64,000 bases of DNA from positions 886,570-950,569 of the forward strand of contig OZ242184.1 of NCBI GenBank assembly GCA_965205855.1, read 5' to 3'. Position numbers and translations under genes: made by a program. This DNA comes from Thermodesulfobacteriota bacterium (GTDB lineage: Bacteria > Desulfobacterota_D > UBA1144 > Nemesobacterales > Mycalebacteriaceae). The notes under the pieces were generated by a model. It worked only from the letters and a program-made list of their open reading frames with translations. It was not told the DNA's origin and searched no databases. Numbering within the stretch: position 1 is the first letter of the stretch; each line of letters starts with the position of its first letter. Below, piece by piece: positions 18,257 through 53,232 of this stretch.

Positions 18257-18884
18257 GACCGGATTCCCTCATAATAATTTCATTCAGACAACCCGCCAAC
18301 GCTTTTTTTCTGTCACCCTTGTTTATAAAGCTCCTTCCAGAAACCGCCTCGCGCGCTTGCTTGTTTACGCGTTCTGTGCGCTCCAGGTCAAAACCCGCAA
18401 CCAGTTCTCTGCACATCCTGTCGCGTAATGTTTCCAAAAAATCACCCACGCTGTTTGCTTTTACTCCAGCTCTGGAAAGTTGTTTGCTGGCTTTTTCAAG
18501 GCACCTCTTCACATTGTCGTCCTTTTCCCTTGCCAGAGCTTTTCGCACATTGCGTGAAACTGCCGCAATCACCGAGTGAACAAACTGTTCCGGCGGCATT
18601 TGCCGGGAAGAAACTTTAGAAATGCCGCCGGCAAGAGAACGGGACTTTATGAAAGATTCCTCAACAAAACGGCTGCATCCCGATATCCGTAGCCTCTCCG
18701 GTCTGGAGCTGTTTTCAAAAGCCTTTTTTATCCCAAGAAGAACATCGCGCTTCGGAACTCCCTCCCGTTTCCACTGTATCAAAAGATAGTCGTCCTCGGA
18801 TGAGATTATCGCCCTACCGACAAGGGAGCAGAAATAGTCTTTTATTTCCCTCATATAGCTGCTTTCGGATATCAAATCGGTCAT
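18204..18884 (-). CDS. DnaD-domain protein (replication initiation / helicase-loading accessory, DnaB_2-like)
   Basis: The segment GRAIISSEDDYLLIQWKREGVPKRDVLLGIKKAFE matches the DnaD/DnaB_2 domain signature (GRxLSxxExxxLxxWxxEGxxxELIxEALKxA). Lies immediately upstream of the DnaC-like ATPase and overlaps it. Confidence 0.5.
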   Translation of the reverse strand: MTDLISESSYMREIKDYFCSLVGRAIISSEDDYLLIQWKREGVPKRDVLLGIKKAFENSSRPERLRISGCSRFVEESFIKSRSLAGGISKVSSRQMPPEQFVHSVIAAVSRNVRKALAREKDDNVKRCLEKASKQLSRAGVKANSVGDFLETLRDRMCRELVAGFDLERTERVNKQAREAVSGRSFINKGDRKKALAGCLNEIIMRESGLDGLFSSANGMESEDVR

Positions 18885-28399: not shown

Positions 28400-30585
<2,186 letters not shown>

Positions 30586-39505: not shown

Positions 39506-42115
39506 CTAAATTGACTCAACAACACCGGCGGACATTTCAATCGCTTCGGCAACCCCTTCGGGACGGTCTCCGCCCGCCTGCGCGAGCACGGGCTTTCCGC
39601 CTCCTCTGCCGCCAATCAGCGGGGCAATCTCCTTGATGATTTTCCCCGCGTGAAACCTGTCTGAAATATCCTTTGTAACCCCGACAAGGATAAATGCCTT
39701 TCCCTCGCGCACGCCGCCAAGCACCGCGACCCCGCCTTTAATTTTCGCGCGTATCCCGTCCCACAATTCCCTCAACTCTTCGGGGCCGCAGTCCGGAACT
39801 TCGCGTGAAAGAAACCGCGCTCCGTTAATTTCCTTCATGCCGGATATCATCTCACCGGCGCCTTTCATAAGAGCGCTTTTTCTGCGCACACCAGACTCCT
39901 TTTCGAGCTCCGTGTTACGCTCAAGCAGTTTTCCGATTTTTTCCGCAACCGCTCCCGGAGCAACTCCGAGCATCTTTGCGGCGCGCGCAAGAGTCCTTTC
40001 GTTTTCCAGAGCGCGTTTGTACGCCGCCTCATGGCAAACCGCCTCTATTCTTCTCACTCCCGCGCTTGAAGCGGATTGCGAAACTATGCTGAACATTCCC
40101 GCCTCCGCGGAGTTGGCAATATGAGTTCCGCCGCACAGCTCAACGCTGTATCCGCCGATTGAAACCACCCTGACCCTGTCGCCGTATTTCTCCTCAAAAA
40201 TCGCCATTGCCCCCCCTTTCAGCGCCTCTTCGTAAGAAACATCCGCTCTTGTAACAACCTCGTCCGCGCGTCTTATTTTCTCATTCACCATATCTTCAAT
40301 CCCCTTAATGTCTTCGTGGCTCACGGGCGAGTGGTGTGTGAAGTCAAACCGCAATCTGTCCGGGGCGACAAGCGAGCCCGCCTGTGAAACATGGGTTCCG
40401 AGTTTGTCCCTCAAAACGGAGTGCAGTATGTGAGTCGCGGTGTGGTGCGCGCACGCGGCGCGTCTGCAGCTTTTGTCAACTGAAAGGCGCACGGTGTCTC
40501 CGGGGCGAACCGCGCCTTTTTCAATCACGGCGCGGTGGCGGATAATACCCGCGATGGGGCGGGTTGTGTCAATCACTTTCGCAAAAAACCCGTCCCCCTC
40601 AATGGTTCCCGTGTCTCCCGCCTGTCCTCCGGACTGTGCGTAAAAAGGCGTTGAATCGGTAACAATGTCCGCTGTGATGTCAGAATTTGCGAAAAAAACA
40701 ACCTTGCCCGTCCCTTCGGTGGCTTCGTAGCCGGTAAAAGCCGATGAGAAACCCGCGGAAACAAGTTCCGACAAACCCCCGCCGCCGTCTTCGGTGCCTT
40801 TCCACGACCCTTTTGACTGCTCTTTCTGTTTTGCCATCTCTTTGTCAAAACCTTCCCTGTCAACCCCGATATTTTTTTCCCTGAGCACATCCTCGGTCAA
40901 TTCAAGCGGAAAACCGTACGTGTCGTAAAGTTTGAAAGCCACATCGCCGGAAAGTTTTTCACCGCTTGAAAGTTTTTTCACTTCGCTCTCAAGAATCTCA
41001 AGCCCTCTGTCTGCGGTTTCAAGAAAACCCTCCTCTTCTTTCATCACGATTTGAGCCGCAAACTCGGTTTTTTCCACAAGTTCGGGATAGGTTCCGGCAA
41101 GTGTGCCGGAGACCGCGCCGAGGATTTTGAAAAGAAACGGCTCATTTGTGCCGAGGGTTTTCGCATGGCGCGCGGCTCTTCTGATAATTCTTCTAAGAAC
41201 ATAGCCCCTACCTTCGTTTGAGGGAAAAATCCCGTCCGCGATAAGAAACACAGCGGCGCGCGCATGGTCTGCGATAACGCGCATGCCGCTGTCAATCCTG
41301 CCTCCCTTTCCATCTGTGTATTTTATTTGCGAAAGTTCTTCAATCCGCCCGATTACGGGGCGAATCAGGTCGGTTTCGTAGTTTCCGGGCGCTCCCTGTA
41401 TGACCGCCGTTATCCTTTCAAGTCCCATCCCCGTGTCTATGTTCGGAAGAGGAAGGGGTTTTGTCTCGCCGGATTCATTCTGTTCATACTGCATAAAAAC
41501 AAGGTTCCACAACTCAAGGTAGCGGTCGCAGTCGCAGCCCGGCGCGCACTCCGGTTTACCGCATCCGGTTTTTTCGCCCTGGTCTATGAGAATTTCCGAA
41601 CACGGCCCGCACGGCCCCACATCTCCCATAGTCCAGAAGTTGCTTTCGTCTCCCATGCGCAGAATGTGGGATTGCTCAAGCCCCGCTTCTTTGCGCCAGA
41701 TTTCAAACGCTTCGTCATCGTCCTTGTAGACGGTAACCCAGAGTTTATTTTTGGGAAGTCGGAAAACATTTGTCATCAAATCCCATGCGAAATGCACGGC
41801 GTCCTGTTTGAAATAGTCGCCGAATGAAAAATTGCCGAGCATTTCAAAAAATGTGTGATGCCGTGCCGTGTATCCGACATTGTCCAGATCGTTATGTTTT
41901 CCGCCCGCTCTCAAGCATTTCTGCGACGAGACCGCGCGTTTGCTGGCGGGAGGCTGTTCGAGTCCGAGAAAGATGTTTTTGAACGGAACCATCCCCGAAT
42001 TGGTAAAAAGAAGAGTCGGGTCTTGCACGGGGATAACGGGTGCGCTTCTTACACGCTTGTGGCCGTTTTTTTCAAAGTAAGAAAGAAAAGTTTCCCTTAT
42101 TTCGTTTCCGGTCAT
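39506..42115 (-). CDS. alaS: alanine--tRNA ligase
   Basis: 869 aa. Class II core, HxxxH/CxxxH editing domain, C-terminal DHHA1. Confidence 0.92.
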   Translation of the reverse strand: MTGNEIRETFLSYFEKNGHKRVRSAPVIPVQDPTLLFTNSGMVPFKNIFLGLEQPPASKRAVSSQKCLRAGGKHNDLDNVGYTARHHTFFEMLGNFSFGDYFKQDAVHFAWDLMTNVFRLPKNKLWVTVYKDDDEAFEIWRKEAGLEQSHILRMGDESNFWTMGDVGPCGPCSEILIDQGEKTGCGKPECAPGCDCDRYLELWNLVFMQYEQNESGETKPLPLPNIDTGMGLERITAVIQGAPGNYETDLIRPVIGRIEELSQIKYTDGKGGRIDSGMRVIADHARAAVFLIADGIFPSNEGRGYVLRRIIRRAARHAKTLGTNEPFLFKILGAVSGTLAGTYPELVEKTEFAAQIVMKEEEGFLETADRGLEILESEVKKLSSGEKLSGDVAFKLYDTYGFPLELTEDVLREKNIGVDREGFDKEMAKQKEQSKGSWKGTEDGGGGLSELVSAGFSSAFTGYEATEGTGKVVFFANSDITADIVTDSTPFYAQSGGQAGDTGTIEGDGFFAKVIDTTRPIAGIIRHRAVIEKGAVRPGDTVRLSVDKSCRRAACAHHTATHILHSVLRDKLGTHVSQAGSLVAPDRLRFDFTHHSPVSHEDIKGIEDMVNEKIRRADEVVTRADVSYEEALKGGAMAIFEEKYGDRVRVVSIGGYSVELCGGTHIANSAEAGMFSIVSQSASSAGVRRIEAVCHEAAYKRALENERTLARAAKMLGVAPGAVAEKIGKLLERNTELEKESGVRRKSALMKGAGEMISGMKEINGARFLSREVPDCGPEELRELWDGIRAKIKGGVAVLGGVREGKAFILVGVTKDISDRFHAGKIIKEIAPLIGGRGGGKPVLAQAGGDRPEGVAEAIEMSAGVVESI

Positions 42116-42179
42116 TTAATTGCCGTCCGTGGCGCGACAGAGTGAAGTGGGAAAAGACGCACGCGGGGAATTGAGAAAA

Positions 42180-42434
42180 TCACTCTGCGGGAGAAACGAC
42201 CGAGACGGTGTTTCTTTTTCCTTTGCGGAATTTCACAACTCCGTCTGCAAGAGCAAAAAGCGTCCAGTCCCGTCCGGTTCCGACATTGTCTCCGGCGTGA
42301 AAAGAAGACCCTCTCTGGCGGATGATGATGTTTCCCGCTTTGACGACTTCTCCGCCGAATTTTTTAACGCCGAGCCGTTTGCCCGCCGAATCTCTTCCGT
42401 TTCTTGAACTGCCGCCGCCTTTTTTTGTGGACAT
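42180..42434 (-). CDS. rpmA: 50S ribosomal protein L27
   Basis: [25 protein letters not shown]-terminus. Confidence 0.9.
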
Positions 42435-42446
42435 TCTCTGTCTCTC

Positions 42447-42764
42447 CTACCCTTTTATACCGGTTATGCGAACCGATGTGTATCTCTGCCGGTGTCCGGC
42501 TTTAAGTCTGTATTTTTTGCGTCTTTTGAATTTAAAAACGGTAATTTTAGGTCCTTTCTTCTGAGAGACGATTTCGCCTTTAACTTCCGCTCCGTCAACA
42601 ACGGGAGTACCCACGCGCGCCTCACCCTCTCCGTCCGAAACCATAAGCACATCGGGAAATCCGATCGTGTCTCCGGGGCTACCCTCGATTTTTTCTATGT
42701 CAAGAACATCTCCGGATTTGACCAAGTACTGTCTGTTTCCTGTTCTTATTACTGCCTGCTGCAT
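42447..42764 (-). CDS. rplU: 50S ribosomal protein L21
   Basis: MQQAVIRTGNRQYLV N-terminus and C-terminal KKYRLKAGHRQ. Confidence 0.9.
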   Translation of the reverse strand: MQQAVIRTGNRQYLVKSGDVLDIEKIEGSPGDTIGFPDVLMVSDGEGEARVGTPVVDGAEVKGEIVSQKKGPKITVFKFKRRKKYRLKAGHRQRYTSVRITGIKG

Positions 42765-42788: not shown

Positions 42789-43547
42789 TCAATTATGCCA
42801 CAAAAAGGGATGGAGTGTCAAACTATACGGCGACCGCCTGATAGTCGGGGAGTTCACCCATTGTTTTCCCTCAAGAGCGCGTCCCGTCTTCTTTTTGTTC
42901 ACACCGCCCCATTGTTTGAAGAAAAACGGAACCCCGCTTTCAACGCAGTTGTCCCTGATTTCCGTAACCCATTCCTCTTTCATCGGTCTTGCGCCGGGGC
43001 CGGACTCTCCACCGACAATGACCCAGTCTATGCCTGACAAATTGAGGTTTGGAAACGGGGCAAGCAACGGTTCAAGAGAAAGAAACTTCACGCAAGCATC
43101 GGTCTGTTTTAAAACTTCTGTACGGGAAAGATATTTCTCGGACTCTACGCTTGTTCCCATCCAGATGTTGGAAGTCCAGTGCAGGTGTTTGTTCGCCTTC
43201 ACAACCCTTTCCGGTCTTTTTGTGAGAACCTGAAAAGTGTGTTGAGATGCTTCGTTCATAACTTCAAAAACGGACATAATGAATTTTGCGGGAACATCCT
43301 TGTGGAACAAATCGCTCATTGAATTGACAAAAACTATTTTCGGTTTTTTCCATTTAAGCGGGTCTTTCAAAGTGTGTTCATGAGTGGTGAGTTTGAAACC
43401 GTTTCTGTATTTCTCCATCCCTTGAGCGTGAAGCCGCTTTGCCATCCGCTCGGCGTAGCAGTATTTGCAACCGTGGCTGATTTTTGAACAACCGGTAATG
43501 GGGTTCCATGTTGTGTGAGTCCATCCTATTTTGGAGGGTTGGGTCAT
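42789..43547 (-). CDS. phage Gp37/Gp68 family (DUF5131) three-Cys-motif protein
   Basis: N-terminal [26 protein letters not shown] matches the family's GWxxxTWNPxxGC..C..CY signature (C-x6-C-x2-C). The ATG overlaps the res stop (TAATG). Confidence 0.75.
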
Positions 43548-46090
43548 TACTGTTTGTTGATAACACCGTTTATATCGTCCCGCCAGCTGTCTTCAAACAT
43601 CATCCTGAAAGTAGCGGGCGTCTTATTGATGGCCATTTCGCCTCTGTCAAGGGCGATCCTGTATGTTTTTTCAAGCGTGTCGAGCAATTTTTTCTTGTAA
43701 CTCGTATCTTCGCTGCCTTTCAGGTGGATGCCCTTTGTTTCCAGAATTAGCAGTTTTCCGTTATCTTTTCGGCAGGCCACAAAATCGGGATACACGCGCT
43801 GGCGTCGCCAGCCTTGCAGATAGTACGCTTGTCTTGCAGCTATTCTGTGCCACCAGTAGATGGCGTTGCTCTTATCCAGATAAAGCGCAAAATCCCGCTC
43901 CAGACCGTTAAAACTACTTTCATAAACAGGTTCAAAAAGGTTTTGCTGTATAGGTCTGCCATGTTCGCTCTGTAATGATCTTTCTTGACTGGAAACAAAA
44001 ACCTCGAACGACTTGCTCAATTCGTAGTCCAGTCGCTGGTCGGTCTCAAGGTGAAACCGAATCACATTCCGCCCAACCTTTTCCCGAAACACCGCTTCGG
44101 CCTCGTCGTCTATGGCCTTGTTCACGCGGCGGCTCAATTCTTCGGAAAGGTAAATTCGGTTATTCAACAATTTGCTTTCATCGTGTTTCCTGTTTTTATG
44201 TGTTTGAATAAACCCCTCCGCCATGCGCGCCGCCTGCCACGGATTGGGCACCTTGTCCACAAGCCGCCGAACAAAATAATCCACGCTCAGCCGCTTTTCG
44301 CTGTCAGGGATTTGTTCCGAAGCCTTAACCTGCCCTTGAATGTCCACCGTGGTTTTGATCTCCTGAGTGATGTCTCTATCATCCAGATTCACCGCTGCGC
44401 CCGCGTCAATGGTGTCCCAATCAATCGCGCTTAATATATCGCGGTCGTAATCAATGGGGCGCCAGGTGCGCCCCGCTTTGTGTAACACCTGCGGGAGAAA
44501 AATTTTCAATGGCCGGTATTTACCACGACGTTTGACGGTGGTCGGTTTCGGTGCATCGCCCTCGCCATGCCCGTGAACAAAATCGCCAAGCCCGGTCAGC
44601 CCTTCATTCTCCAGGCCGGCCTTCACGCCTTTGATCGCCTTGCCTACGACCTGATTATAGCAATAGATATAACACTGGTTCAGCGCATCGCCTTGTGCGA
44701 TTCTGCGTGCATGGGGTTGCCGCATCACCCGACCGACCATTTGCGTGATGGCGGTGGTTGCGGTGGTGTTATCCAGCAAGGCAAGCAGATATGCAAACGA
44801 GCAATCCCAGCCTTCTTTCAGCGCGTCTTTGGTGATAATCCAGCGCACCTCGCTTGTCTCGCTCAACAAATCCTCACCCGCAAGTTCCTTGCGTTCCGAT
44901 GATTGAATCCTGATGTGATTCTCCGGCACAGCAAGATTTTGTATCAGGTATTCGCGCGCATCCTCCGAATGAATTTTTCCTTGCCCTCTTTGTTTTGCGC
45001 CCGTTCTTTCCACCCTGACCAAAGCGATGGGTCGGATATGGCGGTTTTCCTGTTCCTGTAATTTTTGCGCCGCACTTTCAAGCTCATCCAGTTTTTCCTG
45101 TGTTTTGGCAAGCGTGTGTTCCCAGTCGGAATTGCTGAAACTGTGAATCTCTATCGGCAGTTTGATCATCTCCTCGTCCTGGAGGTCGCGGCCCGATGTG
45201 TTGACCAGGATATTGCTGATGCCGATTTTCGGCGTGGCGGACAGTTCAAGCACAAAACGGGGGTTGAGCCGGTTGACGGATTTGACAAACTCCTGGTTGT
45301 TTTGATTATTCGGTCCATATGCTTTATGCGCTTCGTCCAAAATCACCGTGGGACGAATCAGTTTCAGCACATTGATCAGGCTTTGCTTAACCCAGTCGCC
45401 GGGTGCATTTTTCTCCAGGTCGGGATGGTGTTCCGAAAGCGTTGCATTGGCCGCCGCGTCATCCTGCTCGGGAAAAAACGACATATACCCGCTGCTGTCG
45501 CGGAATATTTTGAGAAACTCCCTGTTCTTTTGCCGGTTGGCGGAGGGTAGCATCAGCAGCATAATGCAAAGATAGTTTTCGGTATCCTGTCGGGTAAAGC
45601 GGTCGGTTTTTTGCAACAATTTGACCCTGCCGCCAGACATATGTTCGAGCATCTGCCGGTAGGTATGTTCGCGGGTGTGGAACGCCTGGCGGGTCTGCTC
45701 GTAGATCGCCCGGGTCGGCACAATCCACAACACAAAGCCGGTATCCCGCTTGATCCGCTCAAGCGTGGCCACGCCCAACAGCGTCTTGCCGCCGCCGGTC
45801 GGCACCTTCAGGCAAACATGCGGGATGGGTTCGCCGGATGCCGCAGTGCGGGAAATGTAGCCGGGAACTGCCATGTCACCGTCTTGGGAAATGCCGGGGA
45901 GGATATTTTGATCTTTCAGCGCCTTCCAAGCTAAGAGGGGATAGTTTTGCAGTTCTTCAGGAATATCAATCCCCGACTCTTCAAGAGCTTTGCCCGCCTT
46001 TTCACTAGTCAGCCGCGCTTCCTTGAGCGCGTCCAGCCAGCGGTCTAACTGTTCAAGAGCTTGTTGCTGATAGTTTTTCAGGGAGAGCAT
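43547..46090 (-). CDS. res: Type III restriction enzyme Res subunit (SF2 helicase plus C-terminal PD-(D/E)xK nuclease)
   Basis: Walker [13 protein letters not shown] box [11 protein letters not shown] (LSATP), motif [12 protein letters not shown]-terminal VYPDF...LILETKG nuclease core. Start set at the internal ATG ([10 protein letters not shown], 46090) abutting the upstream ORF. The ORF track extends to 46225. Confidence 0.8.
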
Positions 46091-46091
46091 A

Positions 46092-46649
46092 TCACGGATT
46101 TTTTGAGTCAGTACTGTCTGAATTATTTGGCAAATTGATGATTTCAACAGGCACATTCCTTTTACCAACTGCAAGACCGACAGCGTAGTTACGGATAATA
46201 GTTTGATCCATTTCCATATCCGCATAGCCTTGTGGATAGTACGAACCCCTTAGAATTTCCATCTGTTCTACCTTAAAATCTAGCACCTTGGCCATTGAGC
46301 TAAGCATCTCCGTGAGCAATTCCATTTGCTCCTTGCCGAGTCGTTCATAGTGCGAACGAGAATCATTTTCTTCGTTAGGCCTCTTAGCATGCGTTTCACC
46401 ATAATGCTTGCGGAGTGCTGCCCATTTTTCTATAACTTCTTTATGCTTAACAAATTCTATCTCAACCAGATTAATGGCTCCGACATAATCAGGTGATAAA
46501 CGCGCATTTCGTGTACGCATTAACGTCTTGAATATATCCATTTTTCGCGCCTTTTGTTCGCGCCATCTGTCAAGAAGACCGTTAACCCAGACAGCTGCGC
46601 AAGGACCGATTAAGATGGCTGCAATGGTGATGATAGAATATGAATTCAT
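46092..46649 (-). CDS. hypothetical membrane-anchored protein (single N-terminal TM), embedded between mod and res
   Basis: ATG start, N-terminal hydrophobic helix IITIAAILIGPCAAVWV, then a charged helical region. 2-nt gap to the mod stop and 1-nt gap to the res start. Visibly AT-richer than its neighbours. Confidence 0.55.
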   Translation of the reverse strand: MNSYSIITIAAILIGPCAAVWVNGLLDRWREQKARKMDIFKTLMRTRNARLSPDYVGAINLVEIEFVKHKEVIEKWAALRKHYGETHAKRPNEENDSRSHYERLGKEQMELLTEMLSSMAKVLDFKVEQMEILRGSYYPQGYADMEMDQTIIRNYAVGLAVGKRNVPVEIINLPNNSDSTDSKNP

Positions 46650-46651
46650 GT

Positions 46652-48291
46652 TTATCTTATACCCTCATATGGTAATTGGGCAAAAGTTATCCCCATCTCG
46701 GTTAATGCTTTTTGTCCCATGAATTTGTGAGTGGCGAACACCACCGCGGTTTTCTTTTTTGCCTTGGCCTGTTTGGCGATGCGTTCGGCGCGGGTGCTGT
46801 TCAAAGCGGAATCCGCACTGCGCAGAAAATCAAGGTTCGGCTCGTAGATCAGGTAAAACATTTTGTCACCTGCTTCATAAAATAAACCGTCTTTGCCACG
46901 CCTTGTTTTCGGGTTGAGTTTATGCGGCGATTGTCCGCTTGCGGTATAGATCAGATGGCGGGCAAAGGTTTCATAGCCCGGCAGGTTCCTGCCGGTGAGC
47001 ATTTTTTCAATGCTGATTTCATCGCCCAGTGTGCAATAGGCAAAACTGCCGCCCAGTCCGTTTTTTAGGTTCTCATCCTTTGCTTTTGGTATGCCCTTTA
47101 TCACACGGCGAACGCGCTCGGCGGTGATTTTGTCGGCGTAGTCTTCGCATTCCACCAAGATAAATTTGCGGTTGCCGCCGTCTTCCTTGTTCAGCGCAAG
47201 CACGGCGTGGGCAGTGGTGCCGGAACCGGCGAAGGAGTCGAGGATAATGGCGTTTTTTGTCGTTGCCAGTTGTAAAATCTTTTTCACAAGGGAAATTGGT
47301 TTGGGGTTTTGGAACTGATTAGAACCAAACACCGTCCTCAACTCGATTGTGCCGTTGGTTGTTGTACCTACATCATCCCACCAAGTGCTAGGCGTTAACC
47401 CCCTTCGGCGTGCCTCTGACAAAAAACGTTTGCGCTGAGGTCTGGAACTATTTCTCTTTCCGAATACGATTCTATTGTCTGCAAGAAGCTCCTCAAATTT
47501 GTTCAAATCGTTTTTCCAGCAATTACCTTCAGTGGGGTAAAATATTTCTTTTGTTTTAGGGTTTCTTATCGGATACATCTGATTAGGTCGAACCCCACCA
47601 GCCTCAAATGGATCCGCCTTCCATGGGCCTCTCGGATCATTATCAGGATTTTTGAATCCTTCTAAAATGGCAGGAAGTTTGAAATCTTTTCTAATGGTTT
47701 TTAATACATTCAGTTGTTTAGCATAAGCTATATTATGAGTGTGTGATATTGATACTAATGCAGGATTTGTAATTGATTTTGTGCTATGCCACACAAAATC
47801 TGCAACAAAATTCTCCTCCCCAAAAATCTCATCCATGACCATCCGCAGGCGGTGCTGTTCATTGTCGTCGATGGAAATAAAAATTACGCCATCTTCGGCC
47901 AGCAATTCTCTTAACAACTGCAATCTTGGCCACATCATGCACAGCCATTTGTCGTGCCGCTCCAGGTCTTCGCCATCCACCGGACTTTTGCCTTTCAGCC
48001 ACGCCTTCATCATCGGGCTGTTGACATTGTCGTTATAGACCCATTTCTCATTGCCGGTGTTGTAGGGCGGGTCGATGTAAATGCAGTTGACGCGGCTGGC
48101 ATAGCGCGGCAGCAACGCCTTGAGCGCGTGCAGATTGTCGCCGTGGATAATCAGATTGTCATCAAGGGAAGGGTTACCCCCCCATTTTTCGCTGAAAGAG
48201 ATTTTTTAGTGTCTATCTCAAGTGTCCTGGACGGAACAGTCAGGTGGTGCGCATAAATGAGTTGCTTCCCTTTGAAATCAATTGTCGGCAT
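46652..48291 (-). pseudogene. mod: Type III R-M Mod subunit (beta-class N6-adenine/N4-cytosine DNA methyltransferase), frameshifted at a G7 homopolymer (phase-OFF or sequencing slip)
   Basis: The in-frame body 46652..48115 carries DPPY (motif IV, CIYIDPPYN) and FAGSGTT (motif I). Upstream in the same frame there is NLIIHGDNLHALKALL but no start, and a stop codon follows. An ATG at 48291 opens frame +1 (MPTIDFKGKQLIYAHH..) and ends 47 codons later. The two frames join if the G7 tract at 48177..48183 is 8 G. Confidence 0.75.
48177..48183 (-). repeat. poly-G7 (C7 on the plus strand) simple sequence repeat inside the mod 5' region
   Basis: gggttaccccccca on the plus strand. Homopolymer tracts at the 5' end of Type III mod genes are the classic phase-variation switch. 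Confidence 0.8.
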
Positions 48292-48448
48292 TGAAAACCC
48301 CGTAAATCAGTTTGATATTGGCTTTGAAGATACCCGATTTACTCCCCCAACCTAAACCCCTCAACCTCCCGATGCACCGCCCCTTCCCGTCTCAATTCAC
48401 TCTCCATCAAACAAACTCTTTCAGAAGCAAAACCAAGTTCAAACTGCG
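48285..48448 (+). repeat. direct repeat A: copy of the thpR 3' end (last 36 codons, 48339..48448 on the minus strand) plus about 54 bp downstream. Identical to repeat B
   Basis: 164 bp identical by eye to 51106..51269. The minus strand encodes ..LPQFELGFASERVCLMESELRREGAVHREVEGFRLGE*, compared with native ThpR ..LPQFKLEFVSDRVCLMESELRREGAVHREVEGFRLGE*. The mod ATG lies inside this repeat. Confidence 0.8.
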
Positions 48449-48830
48449 CCCGCGGTGACATGGAGAACCGGATCAAGGATCAGCAGTTGGATTTGTTTGC
48501 GGATCGCACCTCTTGTCACCGCTGGTGGCCCAACCAGTGCCGGCAGTTGCTGTCAGGGTTGGCTTACACGTTGATTGAGGGATTGCGGCGCCTTGCACTA
48601 CAGGGCACCGAACTGGCCAAAGCCAGTCCTCACAGGATCAGGCTGACACTGCTTAAAATCGGTGCCGTGATCATCCGCAACACGCGCCGCATCCGCCTAC
48701 TGATGAGCAGTGCTTATCCCCATCAGGCGTTGTTCCGCACGGCAGCCTATCGGCTCAACTCCCCATAAACCCAACCCAGTGCTGCCCCGGCATGTTGATA
48801 AACAATGGGGGTAGGGGGAGTTGCGCCCGA
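48449..48830 (+). mobile_element. IS1380-family-like insertion sequence remnant (3' end only). The right boundary is approximate
   Basis: Begins abruptly at the repeat A junction and encodes only the C-terminal 100 aa of a DDE transposase. Downstream GGGGTAGGGGGAGTTGCGC could be a terminal inverted repeat. Confidence 0.5.
48460..48768 (+). pseudogene. transposase C-terminal fragment (IS1380/IS4-like)
   Basis: ENRIKDQQLDLFADRTSCHRWWPNQCRQLLSGLAYTL resembles the conserved C-terminal block of IS1380-family transposases (ENRIKE..L..ADRLSCH..ANQ.RL). The N-terminal roughly 350 aa are absent. Confidence 0.6.
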
Positions 48831-48959
48831 AATCTGTGAACAACGAAAGAATTGATCAAAGAACAGGCAACTGCATCATATGATGCATCGACAGGGATGG
48901 CGCTACCGAAAAATCGACCACCACCGCTTCACTCATGAAATATCCGGGATAGTCTCGCT

Positions 48960-50099
48960 TTATTTTCGGATGAGAAACAGAAATTCTTTATTCGGATCGC
49001 TGGATTCCCGCAACCACTCATTTGTCCATTTCATGGCGGCCATCACATTTTTTTTATACTCAATTTTTGCGCTATCCACAATTTCTCCGTTACGCGTTAT
49101 CACCTCGTTTAATTCCTCCGCGGTTGCTCGTCCACCGGAACTGTAAGAGAGCAAGATCCATCGGCAAGGAGTTTCCTTCAGCAAACGCTCTATGGCTTCC
49201 ACCACAACCAATCGTCCTGATTTGCTTCTACGAAATTCCTCGAACACTGAAGTCGCCACTTTATCGGATGTGTCTTTTCTGCGGAGGGACTTGCCAAATA
49301 GCACGGGATGATCATTTTTACATATGGTCGTCCACAAATGATAATATGAAGCGTACCGAACCCTTGAAGGTGGCATTTTTTCATTGTTTGACCCATACGG
49401 AGGATCAAAATAAGCAAGATCGGCGTCCGCTTCGGGAAGTACCTTAAAAACATCACCACACAGCACCGTGTTTTCGATTTCATTTTTCCACAACCGTGGC
49501 ACTTTCAATTGTAAATTTTTGAATGAACGCGGCGACCAATCTTTTAAATAAGAAACAAAATGACCAAGAGTACTGTCTATCTCATTCAACCCTAAAATCA
49601 GGCTTGTCAATGCCACACTTTTGGAAACGTCATCCAGCATCAAGGCATCGATCTCTCTCCTGATTGCATCAAGTTTTCTTGTATTTTTTTTCTGCCAAGG
49701 CTTTTTGGTTCCATCCTTCTGAATAGCATTATGGCAAGTTCCAGAGCGAACATCACCACCGTAATTCTCAGTAAACCATCCGTCTTCCGGAGGAAGCGAA
49801 TTTAAATGATCAATAAGAGGTTGGTATATTTTCGGGTTTTTTAAGTTTTTCAAATAGCACGTGGCAAAAATTCTTGACCATTCGGAAATATCATTTGATA
49901 CCACGCGATATCCTGCTTGTGCAAAAGATTGACTTACTCTGGTGGAGCCTGAAAAACCGTCAAAAATGCTTTTTGCTCCGGTCTGTTTTGACAGATTAAA
50001 AATATGTGGAAGCAGTTTCAGTTTTGAGCCTGCGTAATTGATGCCTTCGGTTTTTGGAACATCAATCCAATCACGAAAAATTTGAACTTGCCCTTGCAT
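48960..50099 (-). CDS. Dam-family (D12 class, alpha-type) N6-adenine DNA methyltransferase
   Basis: NYAGSKLKLLP (compare Dam WAGGK), FDGFSGS (motif I) and YFDPPYG (motif IV) in the alpha-class order. Has a C-terminal extension of about 100 aa. AT-rich. Confidence 0.8.
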   Translation of the reverse strand: MQGQVQIFRDWIDVPKTEGINYAGSKLKLLPHIFNLSKQTGAKSIFDGFSGSTRVSQSFAQAGYRVVSNDISEWSRIFATCYLKNLKNPKIYQPLIDHLNSLPPEDGWFTENYGGDVRSGTCHNAIQKDGTKKPWQKKNTRKLDAIRREIDALMLDDVSKSVALTSLILGLNEIDSTLGHFVSYLKDWSPRSFKNLQLKVPRLWKNEIENTVLCGDVFKVLPEADADLAYFDPPYGSNNEKMPPSRVRYASYYHLWTTICKNDHPVLFGKSLRRKDTSDKVATSVFEEFRRSKSGRLVVVEAIERLLKETPCRWILLSYSSGGRATAEELNEVITRNGEIVDSAKIEYKKNVMAAMKWTNEWLRESSDPNKEFLFLIRK

Positions 50100-50776
50100 T
50101 ATGTAACTTTAAAGCGGGAAGCCTGCTTGAGTCTAACAATATCATCTTTCACTTTTGCAAGAGCCTCATTCTGGCCGAAATCAGAAGAAACAAGCGCGTG
50201 AGAAAATAGTTGGACCAAGATAGGATTGTGAGAATAATCAACCCATCCATTGGTTATGCTATCAAAATAGTTTAAACCACTTTTTGTATGAGTCCAAAGC
50301 CCTCGCTGGAGGGCATTGGCGGTTGCGCTTCCATAACGCACCTCGCAAATATAAGAATCGCTTGCATCGTAGAAACGATATACTGGGTGCTTTCTACCTT
50401 TCTTTTTTGTTTCTTTTACTATTTTCACCGTTTCAGTTTCAGCGCGGTGGTAATCGAAGACAAGAATATTACACTGTCGATTTTTTTCGTCATAAATTAA
50501 TGGCAAAACATTTACATTGTAAAAATCCGAGAAAGCGGGGTCGGCAAGCACTCGTTGTACATTTTTCTTGCCCACTATTTCATCCCCCTCTTGTGCCAAT
50601 CTCGGAAACATTTTGAAATTCTTGTCGGTTGAAAGTTGAAGGGGACCATCACCATACGCTTTGATGCTAACAGGAAATTCAGCTTCGGTTACTTCATTTA
50701 TTATTTTGATGTCTTCTTCCCGAGATTTGGCTCTGTATAAATCTTTGCCAACATGGATCGAGCGAAAATCATACAT
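50099..50776 (-). CDS. hypothetical protein. Putative Type II restriction endonuclease partner of the Dam-like methyltransferase (by context only)
   Basis: Co-oriented with the methyltransferase gene, start-stop overlapping it. AT-rich. No motif I can name from sequence. Confidence 0.4.
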   Translation of the reverse strand: MYDFRSIHVGKDLYRAKSREEDIKIINEVTEAEFPVSIKAYGDGPLQLSTDKNFKMFPRLAQEGDEIVGKKNVQRVLADPAFSDFYNVNVLPLIYDEKNRQCNILVFDYHRAETETVKIVKETKKKGRKHPVYRFYDASDSYICEVRYGSATANALQRGLWTHTKSGLNYFDSITNGWVDYSHNPILVQLFSHALVSSDFGQNEALAKVKDDIVRLKQASRFKVT

Positions 50777-50777
50777 A

Positions 50778-50987
50778 CTACTGGTTGATAAATTCGGCTA
50801 TGGCGATTTCTGCCAAATCTCCATGTGTTTTATTTCCAATGAGGCGCATGGTGAAAATGTTGCTCAATGTCAAGATTATTAAATCCGGGCGTTTACTCGC
50901 AAGAAGCTTCAATCTCGAGATGAAATCTTTATATGGATCATTTTTCATGTTTTTCGTTTGATGCCTCTGTTTTGGTATTTTTATCAA
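50778..50987 (-). CDS. small ORF (TTG start). It may be the N-terminal part of the downstream endonuclease gene split by a frameshift, or a separate small gene
   Basis: Its stop lies 1 nt from the ATG of the 225-aa ORF, in another frame. Combined length would be about 294 aa. Confidence 0.25.
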   Translation of the reverse strand: MIKIPKQRHQTKNMKNDPYKDFISRLKLLASKRPDLIILTLSNIFTMRLIGNKTHGDLAEIAIAEFINQ

Positions 50988-51105
50988 CCTTCATTTTTCA
51001 GATCGTCGCATGAGCTTGGGTTGAGATGATTCGGTAGCGTCATCGAGAATTCATGTGTATCAATTGCTGTTCAAGTTTAACCCGTTTTGCCTGTAAATCA
51101 CCCAA

Positions 51106-51269
51106 TCGGCATTGAAAACCCCGTAAATCAGTTTGATATTGGCTTTGAAGATACCCGATTTACTCCCCCAACCTAAACCCCTCAACCTCCCGATGCACCG
51201 CCCCTTCCCGTCTCAATTCACTCTCCATCAAACAAACTCTTTCAGAAGCAAAACCAAGTTCAAACTGCG
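51106..51269 (+). repeat. direct repeat B: identical to repeat A
   Basis: 164/164 identity with 48285..48448 on visual alignment. Continues on the high-coordinate side into more thpR-homologous sequence. Confidence 0.8.
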
Positions 51270-51338
51270 GCAATTCGGGTAGCTTCATCCTTTTTTTTAT
51301 CCACCCTATCGTAACGTGCGACATAAAATCCCGTTATT
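51160..51338 (-). pseudogene. thpR 3' fragment (last 57 codons), diverged copy
   Basis: Encodes RDFMSHVTIGWIKKRMKLPELPQFELGFASERVCLMESELRREGAVHREVEGFRLGE*, compared with native RDFIPHITIGRIRKRIKLPELPQFKLEFVSDRVCLMESELRREGAVHREVEGFRLGE*. There is a stop codon immediately upstream in frame. Confidence 0.75.
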
Positions 51339-51461
51339 GTAGGCTGCTGTTATGTGTAACGGAGTTTCATATGAAAATTCTCTGCTATGAGCAATTGTGG
51401 TCACTGGGATTCTCACAATTGCTGGTTGTGCGAGCCAGCCAGATTTGACAATGACTCAGTA

Positions 51462-51872
51462 TTAGTGCTCGCCCTCTTGATTAATTTGTTTCCACAAACT
51501 GCCGATAGCAAGTAGTGCTGGAATAATAAGTAGCACCACTACAATTGGCACACTTGATTTAATTACCTCTACATTTAATGCATATACGGTAATAACATCG
51601 GATATGTCCGTCAATAATCTGACAATTAATATCGCTAAAAGTGCTTTATGAGACTTAAGGAATAAAGCAACTATTATCCCTATAACTACCATTACATTTC
51701 TTGTAATGTAAAGTTGTGTAACATAATTCAATTCGGAAACCTCTGGTATGAAACCACTTGGGTTCATGGCCGTACCAGCTGAGAAGAAAAGCACTAAAGA
51801 TATTTGTATTAGAACAATGACCCATACCCAAATAGGTAAGAATCCATTGGTTTGACCATTTTTGTAATTCAT
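51462..51872 (-). CDS. hypothetical 4-TM membrane protein
   Basis: Four hydrophobic helices and an ATG start. AT-rich. Lies between repeat B and native thpR. Confidence 0.55.
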   Translation of the reverse strand: MNYKNGQTNGFLPIWVWVIVLIQISLVLFFSAGTAMNPSGFIPEVSELNYVTQLYITRNVMVVIGIIVALFLKSHKALLAILIVRLLTDISDVITVYALNVEVIKSSVPIVVVLLIIPALLAIGSLWKQINQEGEH

Positions 51873-52050
51873 ATTTGCAACCTCTTATTTTTACCTAATT
51901 ATCACTTAAACTAAGCAGAGTTTCAAGATATTTTCCGGCATCGGCGGCGTTTTGAGCGCTGCATAAGCAAGTCTCGGTATTAACTCGCACAAATCAAAGC
52001 GACGATTGAAACGATACTGAAATTCTGACAAATAACGCTGTGCGTATTTT

Positions 52051-52256
52051 TCAGTTTGATATTGGCTTTGAAAATACCCGATTTACTCCCCCAACCTAAA
52101 ACCCTCAACCTCCCGATGCACCGCCCCTTCTCGTCTCAATTCACTCTCCATCAAACAAACCCTGTCAGAAACAAACTCAAGTTTAAACTGCGGCAATTCG
52201 GGCAGTTTTATCCTTTTTCTTATCCGCCCTATCGTAATGTGTGGTATAAAATCCCG
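52051..52256 (+). repeat. native copy (C) of the repeated thpR 3' terminus plus downstream flank
   Basis: About 85-90 percent identical to the B fragment over about 200 bp. Homology ends at cagtttgatattggc, 32 bp past the stop. Confidence 0.7.
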
Positions 52257-52643
52257 TTTCTCCGGCTCAAAACCGATTGTCTCAAGTTTTGAGTCAATCT
52301 CGTCCTTGAGACTGAAAAACGCGTCCCCGGATTCCGCAATCACCGCAAGCGTCTGCGTATAACGGCGGAGTATAAGCGCCTCAACCCCGTCCGTTGTGAT
52401 GTCGAGCGGCACAAACCGCTTGCAACAACTTTCAATAACCCCGCACAGTTCGGGAATCAATTCGCGGCGCGTCTCTCCGAGAAACCTTAAAGTAATATGG
52501 AATTTTTCAGACAGCTCCCAACGCACATGGCGGAGCGAGCGTATTGCGGCGGAACGGGATTTTATCACCCTTTTTGCTTTTTCGGGAACTTCAAGAGAAA
52601 TAAAAAGCCGGACGGTAGCGCTGTCAACTCTCAAGCTCAACAT
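52083..52643 (-). CDS. thpR: RNA 2',3'-cyclic phosphodiesterase (2H phosphoesterase, LigT/ThpR)
   Basis: Two H-x-T/S-x motifs (HITLRFLGE and HITIGR) in the 2H fold. Start chosen at MLSLRV (52643). The ORF track begins at 52664. Confidence 0.85.
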   Translation of the reverse strand: MLSLRVDSATVRLFISLEVPEKAKRVIKSRSAAIRSLRHVRWELSEKFHITLRFLGETRRELIPELCGVIESCCKRFVPLDITTDGVEALILRRYTQTLAVIAESGDAFFSLKDEIDSKLETIGFEPEKRDFIPHITIGRIRKRIKLPELPQFKLEFVSDRVCLMESELRREGAVHREVEGFRLGE

Positions 52644-53232
52644 TCCAGTATGAGGCATCAACAAAACTTACAAACGGCTCCCATTCTTTGTAGCGGATTG
52701 GGTGCGCGTAAATGTTTGCAAACGGTCCCCACTGCGGTTCGGAGGGAATTGTGAGCAATTTCATCCTTGCCTGTTCGGGAGTTCTACCGCCTTTTCTGCG
52801 GTTGCACGAGCCGCAGGAGCAGACAACATTGTCCCATCTGCTTTCTCCGCCGTGCGCGCGCGGAATAACATGGTCTATCGTAAGCTCGGTTTTGGAAAAA
52901 TGCTTTCCGCAGTATTGGCATTTACCGCTGTCTCTGCGGAATATGTTGAAGCGCGTAAATCTCGGACGCTTTCTGTGAAATCCGCTGTAACGGAGCAGGA
53001 TTATAACCCTCGGCGCTTTGATGATCCTTGTAACGGTTCTCACATAGTCGCCACGCCCTCCGGCGGCAGAGGCGGCGGAAACCTCCGCCCAACTCTCAAA
53101 ATCAAAAGTCTCGTAGGTTTTTGTTACGGCTTTCGCCTCGCCGCAATAGAGCATCACAAATGCCCGTCGCAAATTGGTAACGGAAACGGGCATATAGTTT
53201 TTGTTCAAAACCAGAACCGGCGAACTCAACAT
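52624..53232 (-). CDS. HNH endonuclease (COG1403-type with N-terminal VLVLNxxYxP domain)
   Basis: HNH core CQYCGKH...TIDHVIPRAHGG...N...CSCGSCNRRKG. Its 3' end overlaps the thpR start. Confidence 0.8.
   Translation of the reverse strand: MLSSPVLVLNKNYMPVSVTNLRRAFVMLYCGEAKAVTKTYETFDFESWAEVSAASAAGGRGDYVRTVTRIIKAPRVIILLRYSGFHRKRPRFTRFNIFRRDSGKCQYCGKHFSKTELTIDHVIPRAHGGESRWDNVVCSCGSCNRRKGGRTPEQARMKLLTIPSEPQWGPFANIYAHPIRYKEWEPFVSFVDASYWNVELES

What the first reader, a model, noticed from the sequence alone, without database searches (positions are those of the whole stretch)
48285..52256. Array of cassettes separated by copies of the thpR 3' terminus. Two perfect 164-bp direct repeats (A, B) flank the Type II R-M cassette and the IS remnant, and a third diverged native copy (C) follows
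Repeats A (48285..48448) and B (51106..51269) are identical by eye. Both contain the last codons of thpR plus about 54 bp of its downstream flank. B continues into a longer diverged thpR fragment (57 codons). The intact thpR lies about 0.9 kb further on. Each copy bounds a different cargo: the Type III operon, the Type II R-M cassette with the IS remnant, and the membrane-protein cassette. This is the footprint of repeated site-specific integration into the thpR 3' end with regeneration of the target. Alternatively it could be a recombination hotspot that shuffles defence cassettes. No integrase is present in the window. The perfect A/B repeats could also drive deletion or inversion of the intervening Type II cassette.
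Basis: seen in the sequence. Interest (0 to 1): 0.7.

Follow-up and report, generated by a model that had tools for sequence, protein, structure and literature searches.

The report
Foreign genes inserted with long target duplications
Two pieces of foreign DNA (a restriction-modification gene pair and a small membrane-protein gene) were spliced in between the thpR gene and a neighbouring Type III restriction operon, each leaving a duplicate of the thpR end. The joints look like short-overlap illegitimate joining, not the work of an integrase, and this mode of insertion is already known.

Summary
A (48285-48448) and B (51106-51269) are 164/164 identical. B runs on to about 51337 and matches the intact thpR end, C (52051-52258), at 91%.

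The site-specific-integration reading is not supported.
- The repeat unit is the last 107 nt of thpR, its stop codon, a 47-nt spacer and the first 7 nt of the Type III mod gene. A-to-mod is therefore the native junction, not a cassette border.
- The Type II R-M segment (48950-51114) is 98.7% identical to copies at unrelated sites in two other genomes of one metagenome sample. There it has no thpR sequence and carries variable flanks.
- The membrane-gene module recurs as a lone gene in four other contexts.
- Three junctions show short overlaps (11, 4-9 and about 6 bp) with sequence that continues across the joint in the proxy copies.
- The other ends of both inserts lie inside truncated transposase genes (IS1380, IS1595).
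- The only recombinase in the window is a housekeeping XerD 20 kb away.

Best reading: two integrase-free "insertions with long target duplication" (Nobusato 2000; Furuta 2010) in a thpR-rplU defence hotspot whose content differs in two distant relatives.

The inserted restriction gene is frameshifted. The Type III mod is out of frame at a G7 run.

The parts
52083..52643 (-). thpR (RNA 2',3'-cyclic phosphodiesterase), intact. Its last 176 nt plus 32 nt downstream form repeat copy C.
   Evidence: Pfam LigT_PEase / 2_5_RNA_ligase2. NCBIfam TIGR02258 at 102.5 bits against a cutoff of 65.7. The public gene call P0001 is 186 aa.
52051..52258 (.). Repeat copy C: the 3' end of the functional thpR plus 32 nt of spacer. 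It is 91% identical to B.
51894..52050 (-). Remnant of an IS1595-family element: the last ~47 codons of the transposase (stop at 51906) plus the sequence 3' of it. The break at 52050/52051 lies inside the transposase gene.
   Evidence: Pfam PF12762 positions 139-153/153. NCBIfam NF033547 positions 199-215/215. tblastn to annotated IS1595 transposases at 58-61% identity, E 1e-13, with alignments starting at the junction.
51338..51893 (-). Membrane-protein module: a 136-aa gene at 51462-51872 plus ~125 nt downstream. GC is 36.5% against 48.8% for the window.
   Evidence: 682 homologues, mostly on short contigs. It occurs as a lone gene in four unrelated contexts, L016-L019. It is 90.7% identical to L016, with the downstream 143 nt shared at 80%. 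GC.
51106..51337 (.). Repeat copy B: a displaced thpR 3' fragment of ~58 codons, the stop codon, the 47-nt spacer and 7 nt of mod. Both of its ends are joints with foreign DNA. The right joint has the 11-bp overlap AACGGGATTTT. The left joint has TCGG(N)ATTG.
48950..51105 (-). Type II R-M segment. M is 48960-50099 and intact (379 aa). R is 50099-50948 and is split by a 1-nt insertion at 50778. GC is 40.7%.
   Evidence: 98.7% identical over 2165 nt (to 51114) with L012/L013/L014 and, in pieces, L015. There are 27 substitutions plus one 1-nt insertion relative to L012, whose R is a single 282-aa ORF. PADLOC MTase_II E 7e-162; the L012 R matches REase_II at E 1e-129 over the full 281-position profile.
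48449..48949 (+). Remnant of an IS1380-family (ISPa33-like) element: the last ~105 codons of the transposase (stop at 48768) plus ~180 nt. It is not part of the segment shared with L012. The break at 48448/48449 lies inside the transposase gene.
   Evidence: Pfam PF13701 positions 332-431/435. NCBIfam NF033539 positions 331-418/419, E 7.5e-26. blastn to ISPa33 at 72%, starting at query base 2. Junction overlap ACTGCG inferred from ISPa33.
48285..48448 (.). Repeat copy A: 107 nt of the thpR 3' end, TAA, the 47-nt spacer and the first 7 nt of mod. It runs uninterrupted into the Type III mod gene.
46652..48291 (-). Type III mod gene. Its ATG is at 48291 inside repeat A. It is out of frame at a G7 run (48177-48183); G8 or G5 would give a 546- or 545-aa protein.
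   Evidence: PADLOC MTase_III E 9e-146 for the 487-aa ORF, aligned from profile position 53-58. The frame-repaired N-terminus aligns residues 1-120 to profile positions 1-119, E 9e-59.
42789..46649 (-). Rest of the Type III operon: DUF6680 (46092-46649), res (ORF 43547-46225, real start near 46087) and DUF5131 (42789-43547, whose start overlaps the res stop).
39506..42764 (-). Conserved far flank of the hotspot: rplU (42447-42764), rpmA (42180-42434) and alaS (39506-42115).
   Evidence: same order in L010
52624..53232 (-). HNH-domain gene just upstream of thpR. This is the conserved near flank in all relatives examined.
28400..29335 (-). The only recombinase gene in the window: XerD-type, in a housekeeping context next to scpA/scpB and ahcY. 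It is not part of the island.
   Evidence: Pfam Phage_integrase plus SAM_1. TIGR02225 XerD at 341.4 bits against a cutoff of 329.6.

Best explanation
The native arrangement was thpR, a 47-nt spacer, then the Type III mod-res operon. It lies in an interval (HNH-thpR ... rplU-rpmA-alaS) that holds different defence genes in related genomes. Two pieces of foreign, lower-GC DNA were captured there without a dedicated recombinase.

Older event: a 713-nt fragment (the tail of an IS1595 element plus a promiscuous 136-aa membrane-protein gene) was joined in. This left the thpR end, from -176 to +32 relative to the stop, on both sides (C and B, now 91% alike).

Recent event: a 2.66-kb fragment (the tail of an IS1380 element plus a Type II M-R pair) was joined in 54 nt below the thpR stop. 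This left the segment from -110 to +54 on both sides (B and A, still 100% alike).

Each fragment has one end inside a transposase gene. The joints that can be examined were made at short overlaps. This is illegitimate, microhomology-guided joining that produces an 'insertion with long target duplication'. Because each duplicated stretch spans the thpR stop codon, and the recent one also spans the mod start codon, both flanking genes stayed whole, so such insertions could persist. Afterwards the Type II restriction gene was lost to a frameshift.

Shown: the anatomy, the junction sequences, the cargo copies elsewhere, and the absence of an integrase. Inferred: the order of events, the joining mechanism, and the route of DNA entry (transformation is unproven).

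For B/C an equally workable variant exists. A related donor that already carried the insert may have supplied its own thpR allele as a homology anchor, with the other end joined at the 11-bp overlap (homology-facilitated illegitimate recombination).
For: 1. Repeats and their limits.

2. The mod start codon lies inside A, and the repaired Mod N-terminus aligns from profile position 1. A-to-mod is therefore native.

3. R-M segment. Window 48950-51114 is 98.7% identical to L012-L014 (between valS and a UDP-glucose dehydrogenase gene) and to L015 (between rsgA and rhaM). All are from ENA sample ERZ25069296, on separate 2.4-Mb contigs with different coverage, and none has thpR sequence nearby. L015 additionally carries 45 nt and ~230 nt of the L012 flanks, so the segment has no fixed termini. 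L022 has M plus a 135-nt R stub.

4. Joints. Cargo to B-left: L012 reads ..CCAATCGGGATTG|TTCT, the window ..CCAATCGGCATTGAAAAC, native A ..AATTGTCGGCATTGAAAAC. Cargo to B-right: L016 reads ..ACAATAACGGGATTTTTTAAC, the window ..ACAATAACGGGATTTTATGTC, thpR ..GAGAAACGGGATTTTATACC, an 11-nt overlap. A-right to IS1380: ISPa33 reads ..TACTGCGGCCGTGG, thpR ..AAACTGCGGCAA, the window ..AAACTGCGCCCGCGG.

5. Both remaining ends are internal points of transposase genes.

6. Composition: 40.7% and 36.5% GC against 48.8% for the window.

7. The ages agree. A/B is 100% alike while the cargo is 98.7% identical to its nearest copy. B/C is 91% alike while that cargo is 90.7% identical to its nearest copy.

8. 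There is no integrase, transposase or relaxase among the island ORFs. Across the whole window the only recombinase is XerD.

9. The hotspot content differs in L010 and L001, and no extra thpR fragments occur there.

10. Published precedent and criteria: PMC2853133. That paper reports repeats of 46-423 bp and notes that the repeats often span a start or stop codon.
Against: - No conspecific genome with an empty site could be retrieved. The nearest relatives share only 63-66% ThpR identity. The 'target duplication' is therefore inferred from one genome.
- The donor sequences are proxies: L012 at 98.7%, L016 at 80% across the joint region, ISPa33 at 72%. The exact lengths of two of the three overlaps are uncertain.
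- The fourth joint (C / IS1595) could not be tested.
- Both inserts contain IS remnants. The published class excludes cases with other mobile elements, so IS activity may have played a part.
- B and C have diverged symmetrically, and both carry non-synonymous changes. That fits an imported allele at least as well as an old in-situ duplication.
- The sequence comes from a metagenome assembly, and read-level support was not examined.
Confidence: 0.6

Rival explanations
1. Tandem accretion of small integrative elements by a site-specific integrase that targets the thpR 3' end and carries a replacement end (attL/attR repeats). The integrase gene was later lost, or it acts in trans, as with cis-mobilisable elements.
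For: There are three direct copies of a gene's 3' end with different cargo between them, and the intact gene sits at one end. B and C differ by 9%, as expected if one end came in on an element. The locus is a variable hotspot in relatives.
Against: - No integrase lies in or beside the island. The only recombinase in 64 kb is an XerD equivalog in a housekeeping context.
- The two events have different repeat limits.
- The 'elements' would be 0.9 and 2.8 kb with no mobility functions.
- The same R-M segment lies at unrelated sites, without thpR sequence and with variable ends.
- Cargo sequence continues across the joints in other genomes.
- Two borders fall inside transposase genes.
Confidence: 0.08
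2. IS-driven assembly followed by deletions. An ISEcp1-like IS1380 element mobilised the adjacent M-R genes as a transposition unit, and an IS1595 element carried the membrane gene as a passenger. Both landed near thpR. Later deletions removed the 5' parts of the ISs, and recombination produced the repeats.
For: In both inserts the 3' end of the IS faces the cargo and the truncated interior faces the joint. From general knowledge, IS1380-family elements are known to mobilise DNA next to their right end, and some IS1595-family members carry passenger genes. The membrane gene starts 33 nt after the transposase stop. A promoter-like site lies in the IS tail.
Against: - Transposition gives target duplications of a few bp, not 164 or 208 nt.
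- The L012, L015 and L022 copies of the R-M segment have no IS1380.
- The four other membrane-gene copies have no IS1595. One lies beside an unrelated rve fragment.
- The cargo-to-B joints show overlap with the target rather than IS-end-like sequence.
- Several extra events would be needed.
Confidence: 0.15
3. Import by homology-facilitated illegitimate recombination from related donors for both events. Under this reading the repeats are not duplications made on insertion. They are the recipient's own thpR end left beside the donor's anchor copy.
For: B keeps family-consensus residues (KK, M, FEL) where C is derived, and the reverse holds at other positions. The divergence is symmetric, with 5-7 C-derived against 5-8 B-derived changes. 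An 11-nt overlap lies at the non-homologous end.
Against: A and B are 100% identical, so for the recent event the donor would have to be clonal. That donor would itself need an earlier illegitimate joint, which only moves the question back. No second allele or donor genome is available. This is a variant of the main explanation rather than a contradiction of it.
Confidence: 0.14
4. Assembly artefact: strain variants of the thpR-mod junction were stitched into one tandem arrangement.
For: The source is a metagenome-assembled contig (P0001 and P0020 lie on a 1.4-Mb contig). Perfect repeats are where assemblers make errors.
Against: The whole structure spans only 4 kb. Each inter-repeat segment is unique, with its own joints. 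The related contigs come from long-read assemblies with very high coverage (names). The R frameshift and the substitutions show an independently evolving copy.
Confidence: 0.03

Closest known systems
Insertion with long target duplication of restriction-modification units (Nobusato et al. 2000, Gene 259:99; Furuta, Abe & Kobayashi 2010, NAR 38:2428, PMC2853133)
   Same: An R-M gene pair in a small insert (2.66 kb) is flanked by a long direct repeat of the target (164 bp at 100%; the published range is 46-423 bp). No recombinase is present. The repeat spans a stop codon (thpR) and a start codon (mod), so the flanking genes stay intact, as that paper notes for many of its cases.
   Different: - The insert includes a dead IS1380 fragment.
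- A second, older event at the same target carries a non-R-M gene.
- No empty-site genome is available.
- Here the joints can be compared with proxy donor copies from other genomes, and they show microhomology.
- The R gene has since been inactivated.
Core defence hotspots without identifiable mobile elements (P. aeruginosa cDHS1/2, PMC10250203; E. coli hotspot #37, PMC10121019)
   Same: Conserved core flanks (HNH-thpR on one side, rplU-rpmA-alaS on the other) enclose variable, defence-rich content in three genomes (window, L010, L001). There are no functional mobility genes.
   Different: Only three genomes from a sparsely sampled lineage could be compared, and they are related at roughly genus or family level rather than being strains of one species. 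The island is small (about 9 kb).
Accretion of integrative elements and cis-mobilisable elements at the 3' end of a gene (for example ICESt1/CIME at fda in Streptococcus thermophilus; from memory)
   Same: Several direct copies of a gene's 3' end separate modules, some of which carry R-M genes.
   Different: Those repeats are att sites with a common core, made by a tyrosine integrase. Here there is no integrase, no common core position, and the cargo does not target thpR elsewhere.
Homology-facilitated illegitimate recombination in natural transformation (de Vries & Wackernagel 2002, PNAS; from memory; the term is used in PMC6382021)
   Same: One homologous anchor plus a microhomology joint would reproduce the C - insert - B structure and explain the 9% B/C difference.
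   Different: Competence of this organism is unknown. The A/B event shows no allele difference.

Membership tests
Insertion with long target duplication (Furuta 2010 criteria) | Both R and M gene homologues lie in the inserted sequence | tested here: met
   M is 48960-50099 (PADLOC MTase_II, E 7e-162). R is 50099-50948, homologous to the full-length REase_II in L012 but frameshifted at 50778.
Insertion with long target duplication (Furuta 2010 criteria) | Insert shorter than 20 kb | tested here: met
   48449-51105 is 2657 nt. The older insert, 51338-52050, is 713 nt.
Insertion with long target duplication (Furuta 2010 criteria) | Direct repeat of the target longer than 30 bp | tested here: met
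   164/164 identical for A/B and 208 nt at 91% for B/C.
Insertion with long target duplication (Furuta 2010 criteria) | No other mobile element or mobility gene associated | tested here: inconclusive
   There is no integrase and no intact transposase. However, each insert carries the truncated 3' part of a transposase gene (IS1380, IS1595).
Insertion with long target duplication (Furuta 2010 criteria) | A related genome has an empty site with a single copy of the repeated sequence | tested here: inconclusive
   L001, L010 and L011 each have a single thpR end and no fragments. They are only 63-66% identical in ThpR, so they are not true empty-site alleles. No conspecific genome was found.
Integrase-made att repeats (integrative element / CIME accretion) | A tyrosine or serine recombinase gene at one end of the element | tested here: not met
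   Every ORF from 42789 to 53232 is accounted for and none is a recombinase. The only recombinase in the window is XerD at 28400-29335.
Integrase-made att repeats (integrative element / CIME accretion) | All repeat copies share one crossover core, and the elements have fixed ends | tested here: not met
   The duplicated spans differ (-176..+32 against -110..+54). Cargo sequence continues past the joints in L012 and L016. L015 carries extra L012 flanks.
Integrase-made att repeats (integrative element / CIME accretion) | The same cargo uses the same target gene in other genomes | tested here: not met
   The R-M segment lies between valS and ugd (L012), between rsgA and rhaM (L015), and between dnaX and a cytochrome c gene (L022). 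The membrane gene lies in four unrelated contexts. None of these is next to thpR.
IS1380 (ISEcp1-like) transposition unit | An intact IS with both ends, and a short target-site duplication around the unit | tested here: not met
   Only the last ~105 codons of the transposase remain. The left end is absent, and the flanking repeat is 164 nt. The IS right end could not be located.
Core defence hotspot | The same core genes flank the region, and its content is variable and defence-rich across genomes | tested here: met
   Window: Type III plus Type II R-M. L010: Mrr-like plus a PD-T4-4/PDC-M47-like pair between thpR and rplU. L001: a different Type III-like set with DUF1828. Only three genomes were compared.

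The most novel reading that the evidence does not exclude
The thpR-stop / mod-start junction may be a recurrent, integrase-free landing pad. On this reading, double-strand breaks or stalled replication at this spot, possibly caused by the resident or incoming restriction enzymes, repeatedly capture fragments of DNA released by co-resident bacteria through microhomology joining. The resulting long direct repeats then allow the captured defence genes to be deleted, amplified or released. This locus, with an insert 98.7% identical to copies in other genomes of one metagenome sample, would be a natural system in which to watch how 'mobile-element-free' defence hotspots are filled.
Probability: 0.2. 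Interest if true: 0.6.

Novelty: new member of a known kind. Interest (0 to 1): 0.35.

Why it matters
Many defence hotspots have no recognisable mobile element, and how genes enter them is an open question. For E. coli hotspot #37 the authors state that the mode of mobilisation 'could not be readily determined' (PMC10121019).

This locus gives a readable footprint of one route: short-overlap joining of foreign fragments, with long target duplications that keep the flanking genes intact. Near-identical copies of the cargo in other genomes of one metagenome sample serve as proxies for the donor sequence. It also extends the 'long target duplication' class to an uncultivated lineage whose closest named relative is Candidatus Mycalebacterium at 66% ThpR identity, and to a non-R-M cargo.

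The 164-bp perfect repeat predicts ongoing loss or amplification of the 2.8-kb unit, and that prediction can be tested in the reads. On its own this is an instructive example of a known phenomenon, not a new mechanism.

Tried and rejected
- Searches for conspecific or closely related loci. The genome contigs and metagenome-contig scans with ThpR returned only relatives at 64% identity or less. Exact look-ups of the window's own HNH, membrane and ThpR proteins returned nothing. A true empty-site comparison was therefore impossible.
- Extra thpR 3' fragments in relatives: none. No direct repeats were found in L001.
- Long direct repeats around the R-M segment in L012, L015 and L022: none. Those copies do not show the same insertion mode.
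- A structured or terminator-like element in the thpR downstream spacer that might mark a recombination site: the fold is no better than shuffles (z = +1.08), and no terminator was found.
- Carriage of the cargo on phages or plasmids: no relatives in viral contigs and no DNA match in the plasmid or phage collections.
- Locating the IS1380 right end by comparing two ISPa33 copies failed, because the two plasmids also share their flanks.
- My first reading, that the R-M segment has 'fixed ends' in three contexts, was rejected. The L015 copy contains L012 flanks, so the apparent common ends are simply the limits of the window's insert.
- Source names for the other contigs could not be obtained.

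Full report
**Observation**

The repeats are real and are as described. A (48285-48448) and B (51106-51269) are identical at all 164 positions. B continues to about 51337, and over 208 nt it matches the end of the intact thpR gene, C (52051-52258), at 91%. This is the only repeat family of 40 nt or more in the window. A 28-mer from it occurs three times against zero expected. thpR (52083-52643, minus strand) is confirmed by Pfam and by NCBIfam TIGR02258 above its cutoff.

**Local map, read in the thpR direction (minus strand)**

| Feature | Coordinates |
|---|---|
| HNH gene | 53232-52624 |
| thpR, whose end is copy C | 52643-52083 |
| IS1595 transposase tail | 52050-~51894 |
| 136-aa membrane-protein gene | 51872-51462 |
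| Copy B | 51337-51106 |
| Type II restriction gene | 50948-50099 |
| Type II methyltransferase gene | 50099-48960 |
| IS1380 transposase tail (opposite strand) | 48449-48949 |
| Copy A | 48448-48285 |
| Type III mod | to 46652 |
| DUF6680, res, DUF5131 | 46649-42789 |
| rplU, rpmA, alaS | 42764-39506 |

**What the repeat unit contains**

The 487-aa mod ORF aligns to Type III methyltransferase profiles only from position ~53. The missing N-terminus lies upstream in another frame, and it starts at ATG 48291, seven nucleotides inside repeat A. A G7 run at 48177-48183 separates the two frames. G8 or G5 would give a 546- or 545-aa protein, and the repaired N-terminus aligns from profile position 1 (E 9e-59).

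The A/B unit is therefore 107 nt of thpR, TAA, a 47-nt spacer and the first 7 nt of mod. A followed by mod is the undisturbed native junction. The Type III operon is a neighbour, not a cassette delimited by A.

**The cargo seen elsewhere: the Type II R-M segment**

Window 48950-51114 is 98.7% identical over 2165 nt to a segment on a 2.47-Mb contig of ENA sample ERZ25069296. There it lies between valS and a UDP-glucose dehydrogenase gene. It is also found, in pieces, on a separate circular 2.36-Mb contig of the same sample, between rsgA and rhaM. Apart from the inserts themselves (the R-M segment and the membrane module), nothing in the window matches these loci, and no thpR sequence lies near those copies.

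The second copy also carries 45 nt and about 230 nt of the first context's flanks. The segment therefore travels with variable ends and has no defined termini. A 78% relative of M in the L001 genome sits beside only a 135-nt stub of R.

Relative to L012, the window copy has 27 substitutions and one inserted base at 50778. That insertion splits the 282-aa restriction gene into 69-aa and 225-aa ORFs. The insertion is not in a homopolymer.

**The cargo seen elsewhere: the membrane-protein gene**

The gene has 682 close homologues, mostly on short contigs. It occurs as a lone gene in four unrelated contexts. Only L016, which is again from ERZ25069296, shares the downstream 143 nt with the window.

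The two inserts are compositionally foreign, at 40.7% and 36.5% GC against 48.8% for the window.

**Joints**

- Where the R-M segment meets B, L012 continues ..CCAATCGGGATTG|TTCT, and the native sequence in A reads ..AATTGTCGGCATTGAAAAC. The window switches from one to the other within TCGG(N)ATTG.
- Where the membrane module meets B, L016 continues ..AACGGGATTTTTTAAC, and thpR reads ..AACGGGATTTTATACC. All three share the 11 nt AACGGGATTTT.
- Where A meets the IS1380 tail, the ISPa33 relative reads ..TACTGCGGCCG at the corresponding codons, and thpR reads ..AAACTGCGGC. This implies about 6 nt of overlap.
- The fourth joint (C to the IS1595 tail) falls exactly where homology to IS1595 transposases begins. 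No close enough IS was available to read the overlap.

The outer end of each insert therefore lies inside a transposase gene. The ends that can be examined are short-overlap joints with sequence that runs on past the joint in other genomes. These are marks of illegitimate joining, not of a recombinase acting at a core site.

**Recombinases**

I scanned all substantial ORFs of the window. The flanks are housekeeping genes. The single tyrosine recombinase (28400-29335) scores as XerD above the equivalog cutoff and lies beside scpA/scpB.

**Relatives**

The lineage is poorly sampled. The next ThpR is 66% identical (Candidatus Mycalebacterium). The conserved flanks are nonetheless recognisable.

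- L010 has HNH-thpR, then an Mrr-like gene and a PD-T4-4/PDC-M47-like ATPase pair, then rplU-rpmA-alaS.
- L001 has thpR, a hydrolase gene, a different Type III-like set with DUF1828, then DUF5131.
- None of the relatives has extra thpR fragments.

The interval is a variable defence locus, but the triplicated thpR end is particular to this genome.

**History**

The degree of repeat identity tracks the age of the cargo. A/B are 100% alike and their cargo is 98.7% identical to its nearest copy. B/C are 91% alike and their cargo is 90.7% identical to its nearest copy. That fits an older insertion of the membrane module and a recent insertion of the R-M fragment into the already displaced copy.

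Polarising the B/C differences against three outgroups gives about equal numbers of derived changes in each copy, with non-synonymous changes in both. B is therefore not simply a decaying copy of C. An imported thpR allele, with a homology anchor at one end and a microhomology joint at the other, explains B/C as well as an old in-situ duplication does. I cannot separate the two.

**Comparison with what is known**

The A/B event meets the published operational criteria for 'insertion with long target duplication' of R-M units: R and M in the insert, an insert under 20 kb, a repeat over 30 bp, and repeats that often span a start or stop codon (PMC2853133). Two criteria are not satisfied. An IS remnant is present, and no empty-site genome is available.

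The locus also resembles the core defence hotspots that lack mobile elements (PMC10250203, PMC10121019). It fails three defining features of integrase-made att arrays.

**Verdict**

This is a new example of a known kind, of moderate interest.

Noticed in passing
window 48177-48183 (within mod, 46652-48291, minus strand): The Type III mod gene is out of frame at a G7 homopolymer 108 nt after its ATG. G8 or G5 restores a 546- or 545-aa Mod. This could be a phase-variable switch currently off, a fixed frameshift, or a homopolymer error in the assembly.
   Followed up: partly
window 50778: A single inserted base, not in a homopolymer, splits the Type II restriction gene (282 aa in L012) into 69-aa and 225-aa ORFs. 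The methyltransferase is intact, so the captured system is probably now an orphan methylase.
   Followed up: yes
L015 10560-10698; L016 5418-5557 and 3500-3566: A ~139-nt MITE-like element with terminal inverted repeats GAGACCTTTGCACGAAAG interrupts the M gene in L015. Window 49541-49545 is present on both sides of it, which may be a 5-nt target duplication. The same element lies downstream of the membrane gene in L016, and a second copy there shares a 67-nt stretch at 100%. It appears to be active in genomes of sample ERZ25069296.
   Followed up: partly
L012 8987-9061 and L015 9586-9642: In both other contexts the stop codon of the upstream housekeeping gene (valS, rsgA) lies inside or just at the R-proximal end of the R-M segment. 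The insert therefore supplies those genes' last codons.
   Followed up: no
L012 and L013 (same contig, 257675-278814 and 2354658-2375797): The same ~21-kb context appears twice, about 2.10 Mb apart, on one 2.47-Mb 'linear' contig, with small differences. This probably reflects a circular genome assembled past its own start, or two strain variants.
   Followed up: no
window 42789-43547 (minus strand); L001 16185-16940: The DUF5131 gene (PADLOC candidates PDC-M41B/M30B; weak similarity to 'radical SAM mobile pair protein A') has a start that overlaps the res stop. It is 84% identical at the DNA level to the copy next to rplU in L001, more conserved than the neighbouring thpR.
   Followed up: no
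window 52624-53232 (minus strand): A 202-aa HNH-domain protein whose 3' end overlaps the thpR start is conserved immediately upstream of thpR, or one gene further upstream, in all relatives examined. Its HNH domain gives weak hits to IscB/Cas9-type HNH models.
   Followed up: no
window 51898-51926 (minus strand): The best promoter-like match in the region (TTGAAA-17-GATAAT, 10/12) lies in the IS1595 tail and points into the membrane-protein gene.
   Followed up: no
window 17498-18884 (minus strand): A 252-aa IstB/DnaC-like AAA ATPase follows a 226-aa ORF that has no family match. This may be a helicase-loader pair or the remains of an IS21-type element.
   Followed up: no
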